From a virus, in UHGV virus genome UHGV-0240017: DNA of 64,000 bases. The stretch is one strand, 5' to 3'. Below the pieces are notes generated by a model. That model searched no databases, was not told the DNA's origin, and saw nothing but the letters and a program-made list of their open reading frames with translations. Positions 15,386 to 51,233 of the stretch are shown here, one piece after another (within the stretch, counting starts at the first letter, position 1; the number at the start of each line of letters is the position of its first letter). The position numbers and the translations under genes are program-made.

Positions 15386-15745
15386 TTAGTGTGTTGCAGT
15401 GTTAGTGATAAAACGCACATTCTTCTTGGTACGTTTAATGGACGTGTTTGCAACGTAGTCCAATGCGGACTCTACGTGAACGGTTACTGAGCAACGACCC
15501 TTAACGGAATTAAAACTAATCTGATATTTCAGACGAATCGCATCAGCAACTTTCATCATAATCGGCAAGCTTAAACGTTCTACGCGTTCGTTCTTAATAG
15601 ATGAGATAACGGGTTGTGAAACTTTCGCAAGCTGGGCAAGCTCACGCTGGGTAATGTCTTTCGTGGTCAAATGACAAACTACGTAAGACAAATGAAGGCC
15701 AAATTTACGTTTTGCCAGAACGATGGAATTGTGATTGTAAGCCAC
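15386..15745 (-). CDS. helix-turn-helix DNA-binding protein (putative transcriptional regulator)
   Basis: HTH signature ITQRELAQLAKVSQPVISSIKN; GTG start with AAAGGAG RBS 8 nt upstream; conserved promoter-like motif ~50 nt upstream. Confidence 0.55.
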   Translation of the reverse strand: MAYNHNSIVLAKRKFGLHLSYVVCHLTTKDITQRELAQLAKVSQPVISSIKNERVERLSLPIMMKVADAIRLKYQISFNSVKGRCSVTVHVESALDYVANTSIKRTKKNVRFITNTATH

Positions 15746-15794: not shown

Positions 15795-15820
15795 TCTCAC
15801 CTAAGTAATATATATCTGAG
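15795..15820 (-). promoter_or_regulatory. conserved promoter-like motif (coding strand TCAGATATATATTACTTAGGTGAGAG) plus downstream hairpin
   Basis: One of three near-identical copies; about 50 nt upstream of the start codon; followed by inverted repeat gagttaattgtaactc. Confidence 0.55.
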
Positions 15821-40565: not shown

Positions 40566-40668
40566 GTCTGGGGAGCTTCGGCTCCCCCTATAACCCCTTA
40601 TGCGTCTCGAAAAGCAAAAAAAAACAGAAGACTATTAATTATGAACGGAAAACAACTACCGAACTAAG

Positions 40669-40700
40669 CAGGGGGTGGTAGCAACACCCCCTTTATTAGT
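40669..40700. terminator. GC-rich hairpin terminator
   Basis: cagggggtg-gtagcaa-caccccc followed by tttatt. Confidence 0.5.
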
Positions 40701-40707
40701 TAGTAAC

Positions 40708-40875
40708 TTATCTCCTTACAGGTGGTTGGTGAACATTGTGGTTGTTAACCGTTTTCGGTGCCGCAACGAGGCCGAGACGAACATATTCGTCCATGCGTTG
40801 GTTAAACTGAATTTGTTTCTCACGATTTCGCATCGCGGTATTGAACATCTGTATTTGATATTCGTTCATTTTCAT
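40708..40875 (-). CDS. small protein, diverged/frameshifted member of a 3-gene paralog family (copy A)
   Basis: ORF track 40708..40923; likely start MKMNEY at 40875. Shares RLGL and 3'-end nucleotides with copies B and C but the C-terminal half is read in a shifted frame. Confidence 0.4.
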   Translation of the reverse strand: MKMNEYQIQMFNTAMRNREKQIQFNQRMDEYVRLGLVAAPKTVNNHNVHQPPVRR

Positions 40876-40923
40876 TACCTTTTGTAATGTTGTAAAAACG
40901 TCAACAACTTTATGCGTTGACAC

Positions 40924-41020
40924 CGTACAGTAGAGACTGGTGGAACAGCCTCTACTGCTTTAACTTCTCTTTGGAAAAGTTAAAGCTAAGAAAAGGGGTG
41001 GTGGTGCACCCCTTTTTATT
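40924..41020. repeat. structured repeat unit of three hairpins (cassette copy 1)
   Basis: gtagagactggtggaacagcctctac; gctttaactt-ctctttggaaa-agttaaagc; ggggtg-gtggtg-cacccc plus T-run. Confidence 0.6.
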
Positions 41021-41092
41021 ATACCTACGACCACCATCTCGGCAGGTTACTGTACGAGGAGGAGGGGCGTGTCAGCGTCCCTCCTTTATTTG

Positions 41093-41266
41093 TTAGTAGT
41101 GTTCACTCCTCTTTTCAGTGAATATCTGCGTGAAACGGTTGGTAGACGGTTTTAACCGTTTATCCATGCCGAGCTGACTATACTTGTAGATACGTTGCTG
41201 TAAATTGGTCTTTGCTGCACTCTGTTCTGCAAGCATTTTGTCAGTAAAGTAGTAACCATTGTTCAT
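41093..41266 (-). CDS. small basic protein, paralog family copy B (57 aa)
   Basis: Own translation MNNGYYFTDKMLAEQSAAKTNLQQRIYKYSQLGMDKRLKPSTNRFTQIFTEKRSEHY; GAGGG RBS; below ORF-track size cutoff. Confidence 0.5.
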   Translation of the reverse strand: MNNGYYFTDKMLAEQSAAKTNLQQRIYKYSQLGMDKRLKPSTNRFTQIFTEKRSEHY

Positions 41267-41311
41267 GGTAAGCCCTCTTTGTAGGGTGATTAAAGAAATC
41301 CACTACGGAAA

Positions 41312-41425
41312 CGTGGTGGTGCTGTAAAGGGTACGCTGGTGCTACAGCGTACCCTGCTTTAACTTCTCTTTTCGAAAAGTTAAAGCTTTGATAAGGGGTG
41401 TGACGCCACCCCTTTATTTTATTTA
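41312..41425. repeat. structured repeat unit of three hairpins (cassette copy 2)
   Basis: gggtacgctg-gtgcta-cagcgtaccc; gctttaactt-ctcttttcgaaa-agttaaagc; ggggtg-tgacgc-cacccc. Confidence 0.6.
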
Positions 41426-41432
41426 GTAGTTA

Positions 41433-41603
41433 CTTCTCCTTTCGGTGAAGATTTGTACTCGAGGATTATTAGAAGGTTTAAGCCTTTTATTTAATCCTAG
41501 CTGTTGAACTTCTCTTAATCGTTCATTAAACCTCGCTTGTTCTGCATAGCTGTTCGAGATAGAAGTAAAGATACGTGTATTGTTGTTAGTCATGTTAAAA
41601 CCT
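41433..41603 (-). CDS. small basic protein, paralog family copy C (56 aa)
   Basis: Own translation MTNNNTRIFTSISNSYAEQARFNERLREVQQLGLNKRLKPSNNPRVQIFTERRSNY; differences from copy B are mostly synonymous or conservative. Confidence 0.5.
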
Positions 41604-41649
41604 CACACGAGTTGGGTATTAAGCTATTACGTACCGGTAATAGCGACAA

Positions 41650-41745
41650 GTAGGGACTGCTGGTACAGTCTCTACTGCTTTATCTTCTCTTTCGAAAAGA
41701 TAAAGCGCCTAAGGGGAATGTTGGCGCACTCCCCTTTAGGTTGTT
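41650..41745. repeat. structured repeat unit of three hairpins (cassette copy 3)
   Basis: gtagggactgctggtacagtctctac; gctttatctt-ctctttcgaaa-agataaagc (compensatory change versus copies 1 and 2); gggga-atgttggcgcac-tcccc. Confidence 0.6.
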
Positions 41746-41841
41746 ACCTCCTTTCAACTATCAACCGGGTGTTTCTTGGGTATGCAACCGACGAAACAGC
41801 AGTTCATGTTTCATGAACTTATCCCCTATGTTGAATTTGCG

Positions 41842-41884
41842 AAAATAAATAAAGTGTACCCCTAATCCCGAAAAGGATTAGGGG
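41842..41884 (-). terminator. intrinsic terminator
   Basis: cccctaatcc-cgaaaag-gattagggg hairpin preceded on the plus strand by an A/T run. Confidence 0.65.
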
Positions 41885-41890
41885 TTGCTT

Positions 41891-42706
41891 TTATTTAGTC
41901 GCTACGTATTGAACATGGCCACATTCCTTACATTCCACGTTGGCTTTCGGGATTGTCAGGCCGGTTAAAGGAACACGTATTTGATACTGCGCTCCACATT
42001 CTTCACAAACAAAGTCGTATTCTGGATAGACACGACCTTCTAATTTCTCTTCTTTCCTTAGTGTGCCTGCTAAGAACAGCATCGCACCTAACGCTTCATT
42101 AATCTGCTGTTCCCATTCTCCGTCTAACGGGTAAGCGAACGCACGAGTCAACGTTTCCACCATCTCTGGGGTATTACTTACATAAACGTGTTTCAGTTCA
42201 AACTCAACACGTTGTAAACCAAACAATACGCGCGCTGTTACCGTAACGTTATCTAATGTTTGTGCAAACACAACGGGATTATCGTCACCGTACATCGCGA
42301 ATAACGCAGCACGTTCGTATTCGATATCACTCCACTCGATTAGTTCTACAGATTTAATCGCTTCCGCAATCTCAGCATTACCGAACGTTTCATGTTCCAA
42401 TAATCCGACGATAACTTCATTCAACGATTTCAATTGCTGTAAACGAATCGCAGGATCGGTGTTCACGATAAGCAAACGATGCATTCTGGATTTCAACCAG
42501 TTAATCGTTCCTTCTACACCACCCCCAAACGAGCAGATGCTTATCACTTCAGGTTCGCGAAGGATAAGAGTGGATTTTCCTGCTGCCGTACTCAAGTAGA
42601 GTTTAAAAGACTTATCGTTAGACTCTGCAACGATGGCAATGTCTTCAGTTGGAACGAAGTTTTCATTGCTCAGCCCACGCGGAAAATAATCTTTAATAGT
42701 AATCAT
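41891..42706 (-). CDS. hypothetical protein with C-terminal zinc-ribbon-like motif
   Basis: 271 aa; C-terminal CEECGAQY...CKECGH. Confidence 0.55.
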   Translation of the reverse strand: MITIKDYFPRGLSNENFVPTEDIAIVAESNDKSFKLYLSTAAGKSTLILREPEVISICSFGGGVEGTINWLKSRMHRLLIVNTDPAIRLQQLKSLNEVIVGLLEHETFGNAEIAEAIKSVELIEWSDIEYERAALFAMYGDDNPVVFAQTLDNVTVTARVLFGLQRVEFELKHVYVSNTPEMVETLTRAFAYPLDGEWEQQINEALGAMLFLAGTLRKEEKLEGRVYPEYDFVCEECGAQYQIRVPLTGLTIPKANVECKECGHVQYVATK

Positions 42707-42721
42707 CTTTTATGCTCCAAT

Positions 42722-42753
42722 TAATAAAAAAATTAAGGGCACCCGAAGGTGCC
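42722..42753 (-). terminator. intrinsic terminator (UUCG loop)
   Basis: gggcacc-cgaa-ggtgcc with an upstream plus-strand A-run. Confidence 0.65.
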
Positions 42754-42760
42754 TTATACA

Positions 42761-42904
42761 TTAACCACGACCAGTGCACTGTGCAACGGAATTACCGTTG
42801 TCGATGCAAGTGTCGTAGCCTTTGTCGATATCCAGGTACAGGCAACCCAGAACAACAGCGATAACAACAGCGAAGATAGCTTTTTTGTGTTTTACAGAAA
42901 TCAT
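42761..42904 (-). CDS. small membrane/lipoprotein-like peptide (47 aa)
   Basis: Own translation MISVKHKKAIFAVVIAVVLGCLYLDIDKGYDTCIDNGNSVAQCTGRG; signal-peptide-like N-terminus with VLGC lipobox-like site and 4 Cys; AGGAG RBS; conserved promoter-like motif upstream; not in ORF track (<60 aa). Confidence 0.5.
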   Translation of the reverse strand: MISVKHKKAIFAVVIAVVLGCLYLDIDKGYDTCIDNGNSVAQCTGRG

Positions 42905-42949
42905 GATATAACTCCTAATTAGGTATTCGATAAATGAGTATTACGTAAA

Positions 42950-42977
42950 CTCTCACCTAGGTAATATATATCTGAAA
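42950..42977 (-). promoter_or_regulatory. conserved promoter-like motif (coding strand TCAGATATATATTACCTAGGTGAGAG)
   Basis: Near-identical to the copies at 15795 and 51206; 46 nt upstream of the small-peptide start. Confidence 0.55.
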
Positions 42978-43092
42978 TCTTTTTGAATCCATATACCCTC
43001 TAGAACGCTCTAAAACGCATTCTAACGCAATTTTCTTTTTAAAGGGTAATTAGTCGTCTTAATGGAGAAATGACTTCTGTGTGGCGTTTAGG

Positions 43093-49604: not shown

Positions 49605-49906
49605 TTCTTTATCTCCAGTGAGCCTCTTAAATGGCGTATAAAATCTTTTCGGGTATACCGGCTCGTTTTGTACTGATCGGCCAAATGGTAAACGGTAATA
49701 TACCGCCCTTTGGCTTCCATATGCAAATGCGTTATATTGCCATCGTTCGTAGGGAGTGGTCTGATCAGTGGAATCATCAAATCCCCATTCCAACCAGGTT
49801 CATTAAGTCTCGGTATCAGTAATCGAATGTCTAACCGTTTTACGCAGTACACCACATTACTTTCCGGCAACTTAACAACACATATCGCATCGGCTTTGAG
49901 TTTCAT
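49601..49906 (-). CDS. hypothetical protein
   Basis: 101-aa ORF; 4-nt overlap with the DHFR start. Confidence 0.45.
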   Translation of the reverse strand: MKLKADAICVVKLPESNVVYCVKRLDIRLLIPRLNEPGWNGDLMIPLIRPLPTNDGNITHLHMEAKGRYITVYHLADQYKTSRYTRKDFIRHLRGSLEIKK

Positions 49907-50513: not shown

Positions 50514-51155
50514 TCATAAATCTTCAAAGAAAGTAACAACTGCTTCCGAAAGACTAATTTCGAATAGTCCGAAGGTGTTCTCATCTTCGTATTCTTTACT
50601 AGCTATTAGGGGTAATAATTTAAAACAATCGAAAGCCCCATCAGTAACTTTCAACACACGTGGGATTCTTTTCATCCCTTCTATAAGTTCTGACACCGTT
50701 TCCATAACAGCTTCCGCCGATTTTTCAACGGTTTCATACACAGCTTCGTTTTCTGTTGGTGCGATTAAGTGAAAGAAACAAACTGAATCGTACATCCCAT
50801 TTTCTTTTTCACGCAATGCTACGTGACTATCAAGAAACGCATGGTACGTTACTCCGTCATATTCGGCACATCCGATGTCGCGAGTTTTATGCTTGCCGTT
50901 CAGTTCTTTAGCAATGCTGTCCAGTTTATCTTGGGTTATGTCTTTGAAAACAAACTCACGTGTACCAACTAATAAGCCACCCTTCGCTTGGTCTTTAGGT
51001 TTCTTACCAGAAAGTAAGCGCAACCAGGTAGAAATAGAAATCAGTTCTACCGGATTTAAAGTAACAACTTTACTATTCGGTGCCACCATCGTAACAACAC
51101 CTTTATCCGTAGACACAACACCATCAACAAAATCAGTTAAATTAATGCGGCTCAT
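50514..51155 (-). CDS. hypothetical protein
   Basis: ORF track 50514..51182; start set to MSRINL at 51155 (AGGAG RBS 8 nt upstream), ~50 nt downstream of the promoter-like motif. Confidence 0.5.
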   Translation of the reverse strand: MSRINLTDFVDGVVSTDKGVVTMVAPNSKVVTLNPVELISISTWLRLLSGKKPKDQAKGGLLVGTREFVFKDITQDKLDSIAKELNGKHKTRDIGCAEYDGVTYHAFLDSHVALREKENGMYDSVCFFHLIAPTENEAVYETVEKSAEAVMETVSELIEGMKRIPRVLKVTDGAFDCFKLLPLIASKEYEDENTFGLFEISLSEAVVTFFEDL

Positions 51156-51205: not shown

Positions 51206-51233
51206 TCTCACCTAGGTAATATATATCTGAAAA
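51206..51233 (-). promoter_or_regulatory. conserved promoter-like motif (coding strand TCAGATATATATTACCTAGGTGAGA) plus hairpin
   Basis: Near-identical to the copies at 15795 and 42950; followed by inverted repeat gagattac-tgt-gtaatctc. Confidence 0.55.

What the first reader, a model, noticed from the sequence alone, without database searches (positions are those of the whole stretch)
42761..42977. Unlisted 47-aa lipoprotein-like peptide driven by the conserved promoter-like motif
A minus-strand ORF below the ORF-track size cutoff encodes MISVKHKKAIFAVVIAVVLGCLYLDIDKGYDTCIDNGNSVAQCTGRG: a signal-peptide-like N-terminus with a VLGC lipobox-like site and three further Cys. It has an AGGAG RBS and its own terminator, and sits 46 nt downstream of the promoter-like motif. 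Small early phage lipoproteins such as T5 Llp or Cor-type proteins mask receptors for superinfection exclusion, so this is a candidate for that role.
Basis: inference. Interest (0 to 1): 0.5.

Follow-up and report, generated by a model that had tools for sequence, protein, structure and literature searches.

The report
Early jumbo-phage small envelope peptide gene
The 47-codon reading frame is a real, conserved gene of an enterobacterial jumbo phage that makes a tiny exported membrane or lipid-anchored peptide early in infection; the family is already catalogued but has no known function, and the proposed role in blocking a second infection is untested.

Summary
The ORF (42761-42904, minus strand) is real. 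It has an AGGAG RBS, a conserved 25-nt promoter core 46 nt upstream and a UUCG-loop terminator. It is a full-length member of PHROG 8574 (SPN3US gp66; E=3e-23) and is under purifying selection (C-terminal pN 0.11-0.18 vs pS ~0.75). The exact peptide is already in NCBI (WP_262880969.1) from Salmonella and E. coli isolates and gut metagenomes. The invariant part is a basic N-terminus, a 16-22 aa hydrophobic segment and C-x9-C-TGR[GS], predicted periplasmic. The "lipobox" Cys is not invariant: 18 of 30 members have it, and SPN3US, Asesino and the nearest outgroup have V, S or W. No member fits the strict lipobox. The window variant has the least TM-like hydrophobic segment, so lipidation is plausible here (~50%). 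There is no homology to T5 Llp/Cor (phrog_1119), MgrB, Pfam, PDB or PADLOC. The peptide has two further Cys, not three. The promoter-to-terminator cassette is nearly identical (pS 0.12) in a sister lineage whose flanking genes are saturated (pS 0.63-0.73), which indicates recent cassette exchange. Verdict: new member of a known but uncharacterised family of early phage envelope peptides. Superinfection exclusion is possible but unsupported.

The parts
42976..43050 (-). Locus-specific conserved element upstream of the promoter: about three 10-bp units GCGTTnTAGA ending in TAGAGGGT. Possible operator or upstream promoter element.
   Evidence: Aligned with the syntenic intergenic regions of SPN3US, ChrisDB and Caitlin, but absent from the other two promoter copies in the window. 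Unique in the window. No Rfam match. Function inferred only.
42951..42975 (-). Promoter core TCAGATATATATTACCTAGGTGAGA, inferred to be a virion-RNAP early promoter
   Evidence: 3 copies in the window against 0 expected, each 45-60 nt upstream of an RBS and start codon on the same strand. Nearly invariant in SPN3US and Erwinia jumbo phages, and at the syntenic position. The strict 22-mer occurs 3-5 times per genome and only in this clade. Review PMC7598289 says such conserved AT-rich motifs upstream of early operons are vRNAP early promoters wherever they were tested. The TSS has not been mapped here.
42905..42950 (-). 5' leader with Shine-Dalgarno AGGAG (42916-42912), 7 nt before the ATG
   Evidence: Read directly from the sequence. 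94% identical in the E. coli p98232 lineage, where the flanks are 74-79% identical.
42761..42904 (-). 47-aa coding sequence (PHROG 8574; orthologue of SPN3US_0066, ChrisDB gp82, Caitlin gp76; identical to WP_262880969.1)
42842..42904 (-). Codons 1-21: basic n-region (K5, H6, K7, K8), hydrophobic segment A9-G20, and Cys21 of the lipobox-like VLGC. Reads as a signal peptide or signal anchor.
   Evidence: Pattern and hydrophobicity analysis. The AF2 model has a helix over residues 4-35. Cleavage and lipidation were not testable.
42764..42808 (-). Codons 33-47: invariant module C33-IDNGNSVAQ-C43-TGRG, predicted periplasmic and disulfide-closed
   Evidence: C33, G37, S39, A41, C43, T44, G45 and R46 are invariant in 25 sequences. 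pN 0.11-0.18 against pS ~0.75. Topology follows from the positive-inside rule (inference). The disulfide is inferred.
42726..42756 (-). Intrinsic terminator: GGCACC-UUCG-GGUGCC plus U7
   Evidence: -11.6 kcal/mol, z -2.9. Invariant in 7 related contigs and in the 20-25% diverged p98232 lineage.

Best explanation
This is a self-contained early transcription unit of about 225 nt (promoter, leader, 47-codon ORF, terminator) in a SPN3US-related jumbo phage of Salmonella, E. coli and Enterobacter. The injected virion RNA polymerase is inferred to transcribe it within minutes of infection. The peptide is targeted to the inner membrane by its basic N-terminus and hydrophobic segment, with N inside and C outside. 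Its last ~20 residues therefore sit in the periplasm, where C33 and C43 are oxidised to close an 11-residue loop (C-IDNGNSVAQ-C) followed by TGRG. That loop is the conserved working part. The anchor is interchangeable across the family. In this phage it is about equally likely to be a lipid on Cys21 after Lgt/LspA processing (then Lol-sorted to the outer membrane, because +2 is Leu) or an uncleaved membrane helix. In SPN3US-type members it is a plain membrane helix. The loop most likely binds a periplasm-exposed component that is conserved across the clade's hosts, or that belongs to the phages themselves. Candidates are an envelope protein or the entry apparatus of an incoming related phage, which would condition the envelope early in infection. 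Shown here: gene reality, selection, family membership, conserved promoter and terminator, variability of the Cys. Inferred: early timing, export, topology, disulfide, lipidation, target.
For: The ORF, RBS, promoter spacing and terminator are confirmed. Full-length PHROG 8574 match, E=3e-23. Synteny with SPN3US_0064-0073, and the same promoter motif ~50 nt upstream of SPN3US gp66. Purifying selection is concentrated on the C-terminal module. The invariant columns are C33, G37, S39, A41, C43, T44, G45 and R46. N-terminal net charge is +2 to +4, followed by a 16-22 aa uncharged run in all members. Cys at position 21 is present in 18 of 30 members. A or G at -1 is found in 17 of those 18, against 5 of 12 members without the Cys (Fisher 0.0025, not corrected for phylogeny). 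The window variant has the least TM-like segment of the family (+2.81). UniRef labels the Kwan and Wellington orthologues 'Lipoprotein'. The cassette is exchanged as a unit: pS 0.12 and pN 0 for the ORF against pS 0.63-0.73 for three flanking genes in the p98232 lineage, P<=5e-6. It is the only small ORF in the 64-kb window with this export-type signature. The literature on conserved vRNAP early promoter motifs agrees.
Against: No transcript, protein or localisation data exist for any family member. The one SPN3US infection-proteome paper could not be read. The early-promoter assignment rests on analogy with phiKZ and AR9. No signal-peptide or lipoprotein predictor was available, and my hydrophobicity test is crude: the Cys versus non-Cys difference is not significant for the best 19-mer (p=0.16). 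AF2 draws one continuous helix through the lipobox, which fits a TM anchor better than a cleaved signal. The lipobox is non-canonical (Leu at -2). No target is identified. The function is argued only from architecture, timing and conservation pattern.
Confidence: 0.6

Rival explanations
1. One reading: an outer-membrane lipoprotein that masks the phage's receptor, like T5 Llp on FhuA or Cor, and so gives superinfection exclusion or protects progeny from inactivation on debris.
For: VLGC passes the permissive lipoprotein rule, +2 is Leu (outer-membrane sorting), and the hydrophobic segment is short and signal-peptide-like. The gene is inferred to be early and has its own promoter and terminator, like llp. 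The cassette sweeps across lineages, as expected for an accessory trait under strong selection.
Against: Not homologous to Llp/Cor (phrog_1119). The Cys is absent in 12 of 30 members, including SPN3US and several Erwinia phages that share a host with Cys-bearing members. An outer-membrane location therefore cannot be required for the conserved function. The loop is nearly invariant across phages of Salmonella, E. coli, Erwinia and Proteus, which is unexpected for a mask fitted to lineage-specific receptors. The gene is not adjacent to a receptor-binding protein gene. The mature part would be only 27 aa, against 61 aa for the folded Llp.
Confidence: 0.12
2. An uncleaved bitopic inner-membrane peptide that works like the host small protein MgrB. 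It docks by its TM helix and disulfide-bonded periplasmic tail onto a host inner-membrane sensor kinase, transporter or envelope machine and changes its activity early in infection.
For: The architecture is the same as E. coli MgrB, whose sequence was verified. Both are 47 aa with a basic N-terminus, a TM segment containing xLAC, and two periplasmic Cys spaced 9-10 apart. In MgrB the TM Cys16 is dispensable and C28/C39 are essential (bioRxiv 10.1101/438515). That mirrors the conservation pattern here, with a variable Cys21 and invariant C33/C43. SPN3US-type members have TM-grade hydrophobicity (-2.1, against -2.2 for MgrB). AF2 gives a continuous helix over residues 4-35. An invariant loop across hosts fits a target conserved in Enterobacterales.
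Against: No sequence relationship: hhalign 28% probability over 17 TM columns only, and no Pfam MgrB hit. The window variant's hydrophobic run is only 16 residues and is flanked by K8 and D25, which is marginal for a stable TM helix. No target is known.
Confidence: 0.2
3. A membrane-damaging host shut-off or lysis-timing peptide (Hok/Gef-like type I toxin or a holin/antiholin-like factor) that depolarises or permeabilises the inner membrane.
For: A ~50-aa single-pass peptide with a periplasmic Cys-containing tail is also the Hok/Gef layout (from my own knowledge). Early jumbo-phage genes are described as a rich source of potentially cytotoxic activities (PMC5312081).
Against: No Pfam hit to Hok/Gef or any holin family at E<=10. 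Selection is concentrated on the polar periplasmic loop rather than on the TM helix. Early depolarisation would harm a phage with a long infection cycle. The same phage lineage is repeatedly recovered with viable isolates.
Confidence: 0.07
4. The outer-membrane lipoprotein subunit (o-spanin) of the lysis system.
For: Small size, lipobox-like site and periplasmic Cys residues. Weak PHROG hit to 'Rz-like spanin' (phrog_4297, E=0.04).
Against: The weak hit covers only the N-terminal hydrophobic segment of an i-spanin profile. There is no adjacent, overlapping or embedded i-spanin partner: the neighbours are a 271-aa zinc-ribbon protein and a 268-aa PHROG 8163 protein. The lipobox Cys is missing in 40% of the family. 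The gene sits under the early-type promoter. The peptide has no Pro-rich region.
Confidence: 0.02
5. Not a gene: a chance ORF inside a short non-coding early transcript.
For: The ORF is short, and the region is dense in hairpins and small ORFs.
Against: pN is far below pS, with saturated synonymous sites across genera. Length is conserved at 45-51 aa, and there is an invariant C-terminal motif in 30 sequences. Strong RBS. No Rfam family match.
Confidence: 0.01

Closest known systems
PHROG 8574 / Salmonella phage SPN3US gp66 (SPN3US_0066) and orthologues in Erwinia jumbo phages (ChrisDB gp82, Caitlin gp76, Kwan gp81, Asesino gp84)
   Same: Full-length homologue (E=3e-23), with the same length, the same synteny (virion protein, 266-aa protein, promoter, peptide, ..., helicase), and the same promoter motif directly upstream in SPN3US. 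The C-x9-C-TGRG module is invariant.
   Different: 45-54% identity. The window variant has LGC-LYLDIDK, where SPN3US has AFA-V-LSITVTQ (no Cys, longer hydrophobic run). In the window it is monocistronic with its own terminator. In SPN3US it is the first gene of an operon (gp66-gp67 overlap), and in the Erwinia phages it is the third gene after the promoter. The family has no assigned function.
E. coli MgrB (47-aa PhoQ inhibitor)
   Same: Same size, topology and layout: basic N-terminus, TM segment with an xLAC Cys that is dispensable in MgrB and variable here, and two essential or invariant periplasmic Cys 9-10 residues apart.
   Different: No detectable homology (hhalign 28%, TM only). Host-encoded rather than phage-encoded. 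The periplasmic sequence is unrelated. The target here is unknown.
T5 Llp / Cor superinfection-exclusion lipoproteins (phrog_1119)
   Same: Small phage-encoded peptide with a signal peptide and lipobox-type Cys, its own promoter, and expression inferred to be early.
   Different: No homology (2.7% probability). The mature part is 27 aa against 61 aa. The lipobox is non-canonical and not conserved in the family. The gene is not next to a receptor-binding protein gene.
T4 Spackle (Sp) and Imm, early periplasmic or inner-membrane superinfection-exclusion proteins
   Same: Early phage proteins exported to the periplasmic face. Sp targets the incoming phage's own tail lysozyme (PMC7677548). A phage-intrinsic target would explain why the loop is invariant across hosts.
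   Different: No sequence relationship was sought beyond the library scans, which were negative. Sp is a 97-aa precursor with a folded helical domain. Here only about 20 residues are exposed.
phiKZ/AR9-type virion-RNAP early promoters
   Same: A highly conserved AT-rich motif recurs upstream of same-strand genes and is conserved across related jumbo phages.
   Different: The 25-mer is specific to the SPN3US/Erwinia clade, and its strict form is rare (3-5 per genome). No TSS mapping exists for this clade.

Membership tests
PHROG 8574 (SPN3US gp66-like small proteins) | Full-length match to the 47-position family profile | tested here: met
   E=3.4e-23, residues 1-47 on profile positions 1-47.
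PHROG 8574 (SPN3US gp66-like small proteins) | Syntenic position between the 266-aa PHROG 8163 gene and the divergently transcribed DnaB-type helicase | tested here: met
PHROG 8574 (SPN3US gp66-like small proteins) | C-terminal C-x9-C-T-G-R-[GS] module | tested here: met
   CIDNGNSVAQCTGRG in the window. The columns are invariant in 25 sequences.
Bacterial lipoprotein (Lgt/LspA/Lnt substrate) | Basic n-region followed by an uncharged h-region of 7-22 residues that ends at the lipobox | tested here: met
   K5, K7 and K8, then A9-G20 (12 residues), with Cys at position 21.
Bacterial lipoprotein (Lgt/LspA/Lnt substrate) | Canonical lipobox [LVI][ASTVI][GAS]C | tested here: not met
   VLGC has Leu at -2. 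None of the 18 Cys-bearing family members fits the strict pattern.
Bacterial lipoprotein (Lgt/LspA/Lnt substrate) | Permissive PROSITE PS51257-type pattern, Cys at positions 15-35, and K/R within the first 7 residues | tested here: met
   16 of 28 sequences pass, including the window.
Bacterial lipoprotein (Lgt/LspA/Lnt substrate) | Lipidated Cys conserved among orthologues | tested here: not met
   18 of 30 members have Cys. The others have V, A, S, T, W or L.
Bacterial lipoprotein (Lgt/LspA/Lnt substrate) | Diacylglyceryl modification and globomycin-sensitive cleavage | not testable with these tools
   Needs labelling or globomycin experiments. No SignalP or LipoP was available.
T5 Llp / Cor superinfection-exclusion lipoproteins (phrog_1119) | Sequence or profile homology to Llp/Cor | tested here: not met
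   Llp hits phrog_1119 at 1e-19. The peptide has no hit to it at E<=1. hhalign probability is 2.7%.
T5 Llp / Cor superinfection-exclusion lipoproteins (phrog_1119) | Gene adjacent to the receptor-binding protein or tail-fibre gene | tested here: not met
   The neighbours are head-tail joining and virion proteins of unknown role, a zinc-ribbon protein and a helicase. None is a recognisable receptor-binding protein.
T5 Llp / Cor superinfection-exclusion lipoproteins (phrog_1119) | Binds and inactivates the phage's outer-membrane receptor | not testable with these tools
   Needs adsorption, plating-efficiency and binding assays.
MgrB family | Sequence homology (Pfam MgrB) | tested here: not met
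   No Pfam hit at E<=10. hhalign 28% over the TM segment only.
MgrB family | 47-aa N-in/C-out bitopic peptide with two functionally required periplasmic Cys | tested here: inconclusive
   Size, charge bias and the invariant Cys pair match. Topology and the requirement for the Cys pair were not tested.
o-spanin (Rz1-like) | Partner i-spanin gene adjacent, overlapping or embedding | tested here: not met
   No such ORF on either side.
Virion-RNAP early promoter of RNAP-encoding jumbo phages | Over-represented, conserved AT-rich motif upstream of same-strand genes, shared by related phages | tested here: met
   Literature criterion from PMC7598289.
Virion-RNAP early promoter of RNAP-encoding jumbo phages | Early, rifampicin-insensitive transcription start about 10 nt downstream of the motif centre | not testable with these tools
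   No transcriptome for this clade was found.

The most novel reading that the evidence does not exclude
The peptide is the first envelope-acting early effector of a nucleus-forming-type jumbo phage clade. A disulfide-closed 11-residue periplasmic loop, hung on either a lipid or a TM helix depending on lineage, would block entry of related jumbo phages or reprogram a conserved enterobacterial envelope sensor. Its 255-bp promoter-to-terminator cassette would be swept by recombination among co-circulating lineages that persist in Salmonella, E. coli and Enterobacter isolates as ~222-kb extrachromosomal elements.
Probability: 0.2. Interest if true: 0.6.

Novelty: new member of a known kind. Interest (0 to 1): 0.33.

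Why it matters
Small early phage proteins that act on the cell envelope are hard to find and rarely characterised, and none is described for SPN3US-type jumbo phages. This one offers three things that can be tested directly. First, it is a minimal unit of about 225 nt under one of only 3-5 copies per genome of the clade's most conserved promoter. Second, the family provides a natural experiment in anchor type, with a lipobox Cys present in some lineages and absent in others. Third, the cassette has been exchanged between lineages that differ by 20-25% in their flanking genes, which argues for a selectable accessory function. Even so, the family was already catalogued and annotated as hypothetical, so the immediate gain is better annotation rather than a new principle.

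Tried and rejected
(1) Homology routes to a function all came back empty: Pfam, NCBIfam, PADLOC and the PDB sequence profile. The Rfam hit (beta_tmRNA, 13 bits against a gathering score of 84) is noise.
(2) The exhaustive profile search of 1.84 billion representatives found only 9 clusters. All are 45-51-aa phage peptides except one repeat protein that matched by low complexity, so no longer or better-known relatives exist.
(3) MgrB and T5 Llp were fetched as verified sequences and compared by hhalign. Only the hydrophobic segments align.
(4) AF2 gave a long helix plus a short C-terminal helix (pLDDT 86). I did not run fold searches, because a 47-aa helix gives meaningless matches.
(5) The hydrophobicity comparison of Cys-bearing and Cys-less members showed the expected trend but was weak (p=0.16 and 0.035, not corrected for phylogeny).
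(6) Literature: no paper mentions SPN3US gp66. The SPN3US infection-proteome paper (PMC6384053) is not held. A text search for the motif string was uninformative.
(7) The fourth TATATTAC match at 49695 lies inside coding sequence without the rest of the motif and was rejected as chance.
(8) The SPase I cleavage idea for Cys-less members (AFA|V in SPN3US) was considered but left open. There is no polar c-region or helix breaker, so an uncleaved anchor is the simpler reading.
(9) No paralogue of the peptide or of its C-terminal motif exists elsewhere in the window.

Full report
WHAT IS THERE. The minus-strand ORF 42761..42904 encodes MISVKHKKAIFAVVIAVVLGCLYLDIDKGYDTCIDNGNSVAQCTGRG, exactly as reported. 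AGGAG (42916-42912) lies 7 nt before the ATG. The 25-nt motif TCAGATATATATTACCTAGGTGAGA (42975-42951) ends 46 nt before the ATG. A GGCACC-UUCG-GGUGCC hairpin plus U7 (42753-42726) follows the stop codon, with energy -11.6 kcal/mol and z -2.9.

IS IT A GENE. Length alone proves nothing, since there are 63 ORFs of at least 25 aa in 5 kb. Four results show it is a gene:
- The peptide is a full-length member of PHROG 8574 (E=3e-23).
- tblastn finds it in 61 phage records, all SPN3US-like Salmonella, E. coli and Proteus phages or Erwinia jumbo phages. Most annotate it as a hypothetical protein.
- It is syntenic with SPN3US_0066, ChrisDB gp82 and Caitlin gp76.
- Against those orthologues, synonymous sites are saturated (pS 0.6-0.75) while pN is ~0.3 overall and 0.11-0.18 in codons 29-47. 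All five variable sites among close relatives are synonymous third positions.

The exact peptide is already public. It is WP_262880969.1, 'MULTISPECIES: hypothetical protein [Enterobacterales]'. It occurs on more than 1000 contigs of up to 238 kb from Salmonella enterica and E. coli isolate assemblies and from human-gut metagenomes.

THE PROMOTER. The 25-mer occurs three times in the window against 0 expected. All copies are on the minus strand, each 45-60 nt upstream of an RBS and start codon. It is almost invariant in SPN3US and the Erwinia phages, although their coding DNA is only ~60% identical to the window's, and it sits at the syntenic position. In SPN3US it lies ~50 nt before gp66, with one mismatch. 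A scan of IMG/VR finds the strict 22-mer only in this clade, at 3-5 copies per 220-245 kb genome. Review PMC7598289 states that every RNAP-encoding jumbo phage has such a conserved AT-rich motif upstream of early operons, and that it proved to be the early (virion RNAP) promoter wherever transcripts were profiled. Early expression is therefore a well-founded inference, not an observation. I recall the phiKZ early consensus containing TATATTAC, but I could not verify that here.

THE FAMILY AND THE LIPOBOX. Thirty distinct members were collected. The exhaustive profile search found only 9 clusters at 50% identity among 1.84 billion representatives, so the family is confined to this phage clade. 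All members share the same layout: a basic N-terminus (net +2 to +4), a 16-22 aa uncharged run, then [DY..]C-x9-C-T-G-R-[GS]. C33, G37, S39, A41, C43, T44, G45 and R46 are invariant.

The 'lipobox' Cys is present in 18 of 30 members. It is replaced by V in SPN3US and Asesino, by A, S or T in others, by W in P0024, and by S in P0025. P0025 reads TFG-S-LYL, the closest outgroup to the window's LG-C-LYL. Erwinia amylovora phages include both states. None of the 18 fits the strict [LVI][ASTVI][GAS]C pattern, and 16 of 28 pass the permissive PROSITE-type rule. That rule is presumably why UniRef calls the Kwan and Wellington orthologues 'Lipoprotein'.

Two observations favour a functional lipobox in some lineages:
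- Cys co-occurs with A or G at -1 in 17 of 18 members, against 5 of 12 Cys-less members (Fisher 0.0025, not corrected for phylogeny).
- Cys-bearing members tend to have less TM-like segments, although the difference is weak (p=0.16 and 0.035).

The window variant is the extreme case. Its uncharged run is 16 residues, bounded by K8 and D25, and its best 19-residue Hessa sum is +2.8. That is closer to the verified T5 Llp signal peptide (+4.2) than to the verified MgrB TM helix (-2.2) or to SPN3US gp66 (-2.1). AF2, in contrast, draws one helix over residues 4-35 (pLDDT 86). I put lipidation of the window peptide at about 50%. If it is lipidated, Leu at +2 predicts Lol sorting to the outer membrane, by the established '+2 rule' for Enterobacterales.

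HOW IT MOST LIKELY WORKS. The positive-inside rule places the N-terminus in the cytoplasm and the C-terminal ~20 residues in the periplasm. There, two invariant Cys nine residues apart would be oxidised into a loop. Selection is concentrated on that loop and not on the anchor. The anchor type is interchangeable even among phages of one host. So the conserved activity is a periplasm-exposed, disulfide-closed loop that binds something reachable from the membrane surface.

The loop is nearly invariant across phages of Salmonella, E. coli, Erwinia and Proteus. That argues for a target conserved across Enterobacterales, or one belonging to the phages themselves. An example of the latter is an incoming phage's entry machinery, as with T4 Spackle, which inhibits the gp5 lysozyme (PMC7677548). 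It argues against a lineage-specific receptor. This keeps 'superinfection exclusion' alive as a role but disfavours the Llp/Cor receptor-mask mechanism.

COMPARISON WITH KNOWN SYSTEMS. The peptide is not a member of the Llp/Cor family. T5 Llp maps to phrog_1119, the peptide does not, and hhalign gives 2.7%. The gene is not next to a recognisable receptor-binding protein gene.

It is not homologous to MgrB, but its architecture matches MgrB closely. Both are 47 aa with a TM segment containing xLAC. The TM Cys is dispensable in MgrB and variable here, while the two periplasmic Cys are essential in MgrB and invariant here.

It is not an o-spanin, because there is no partner gene, the promoter is of the early type, and the Cys is not conserved. 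Pfam, NCBIfam, PADLOC and the PDB gave nothing.

CASSETTE EXCHANGE. A sister lineage is deposited as circular 'plasmids' of 221,873 bp (E. coli 98232, urine) and 222,441 bp (Enterobacter ludwigii, gull cloaca). Its flanking genes are only 74-79% identical to the window's, with pS 0.63-0.73. The 47-aa ORF, in contrast, is 97% identical with pS 0.12 and pN 0; P<=5e-6 if it had diverged like its neighbours. The high-identity block runs from the promoter core to the end of the terminator hairpin. Synonymous sites in this gene are free to saturate against more distant orthologues. The block is therefore best explained by recent recombinational exchange of the whole mini-cassette. In the window it is a monocistronic unit. 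In SPN3US the orthologue heads an operon, and in the Erwinia phages it is the third gene after the promoter.

VERDICT. It is a real, probably early, exported envelope peptide, and the lipoprotein reading is plausible for this variant, but lipidation is not a family trait. There is no relationship to Llp/Cor, and the exclusion function is untested. It is a new member of an already catalogued, uncharacterised family of small phage proteins. Interest is modest.

Noticed in passing
window 42976-43050 (minus strand); L001 2290-2345; L002 and L003 syntenic intergenic regions: A ~45-70-nt element immediately upstream of this promoter copy only. It has about three 10-bp units GCGTTnTAGA ending in TAGAGGGT. 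It is conserved at the syntenic locus in SPN3US, ChrisDB and Caitlin but absent from the other two promoter copies. In SPN3US it forms nested inverted repeats. It could be an operator or upstream element specific to this early unit. No Rfam match.
   Followed up: partly
window 40570-41890; L014-L019 4000-5300: The stretch between the 271-aa gene and the helicase gene carries a variable number (1-4) of 51-61-aa ORFs in otherwise near-identical contigs. It is only 48% alignable to the p98232 lineage and is packed with strong hairpins: 18 terminator-like sites in 5 kb against 4.9 expected. The ORFs (e.g. 41423-41593 and 41093-41266, which resemble each other) have no PHROG match. It looks like a hypervariable array of mini-cassettes.
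   Followed up: partly
whole window; NZ_CP173450.1 and NZ_CP134650.1; cluster 1: This SPN3US-related jumbo phage lineage (~220-238 kb) turns up on more than 1000 contigs in Salmonella enterica and E. coli isolate assemblies. A sister lineage is deposited as circular non-mobilizable 'plasmids' in complete genomes of E. coli (urine) and Enterobacter ludwigii (gull). This suggests a carrier state or pseudolysogeny for a phage type regarded as strictly lytic.
   Followed up: partly
window 51206-51230 (-) and 15795-15819 (-): The other two copies of the 25-nt promoter core precede two genes. One is a 213-aa ORF (ATG at 51155) with no PHROG match. The other is a GTG-initiated 119-aa HTH DNA-binding protein (15386-15745, phrog_7126), a candidate early regulator.
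   Followed up: partly
IMG/VR loci L020-L055: The strict 22-mer form of the promoter occurs only 3-5 times per 220-245 kb genome and only in the SPN3US/Erwinia jumbo-phage clade. That is far fewer than the 28 early promoters reported for phiKZ. Either most early promoters are degenerate versions, or this is a special subclass.
   Followed up: no
window 41891-42706 (-): The 271-aa gene immediately downstream of the terminator ends in a CxxC...CxxC zinc ribbon (weak Pfam Zn_ribbon hits, phrog_10180). It is the fastest-evolving neighbour, at 69% aa identity to the p98232 lineage with pN 0.17.
   Followed up: no
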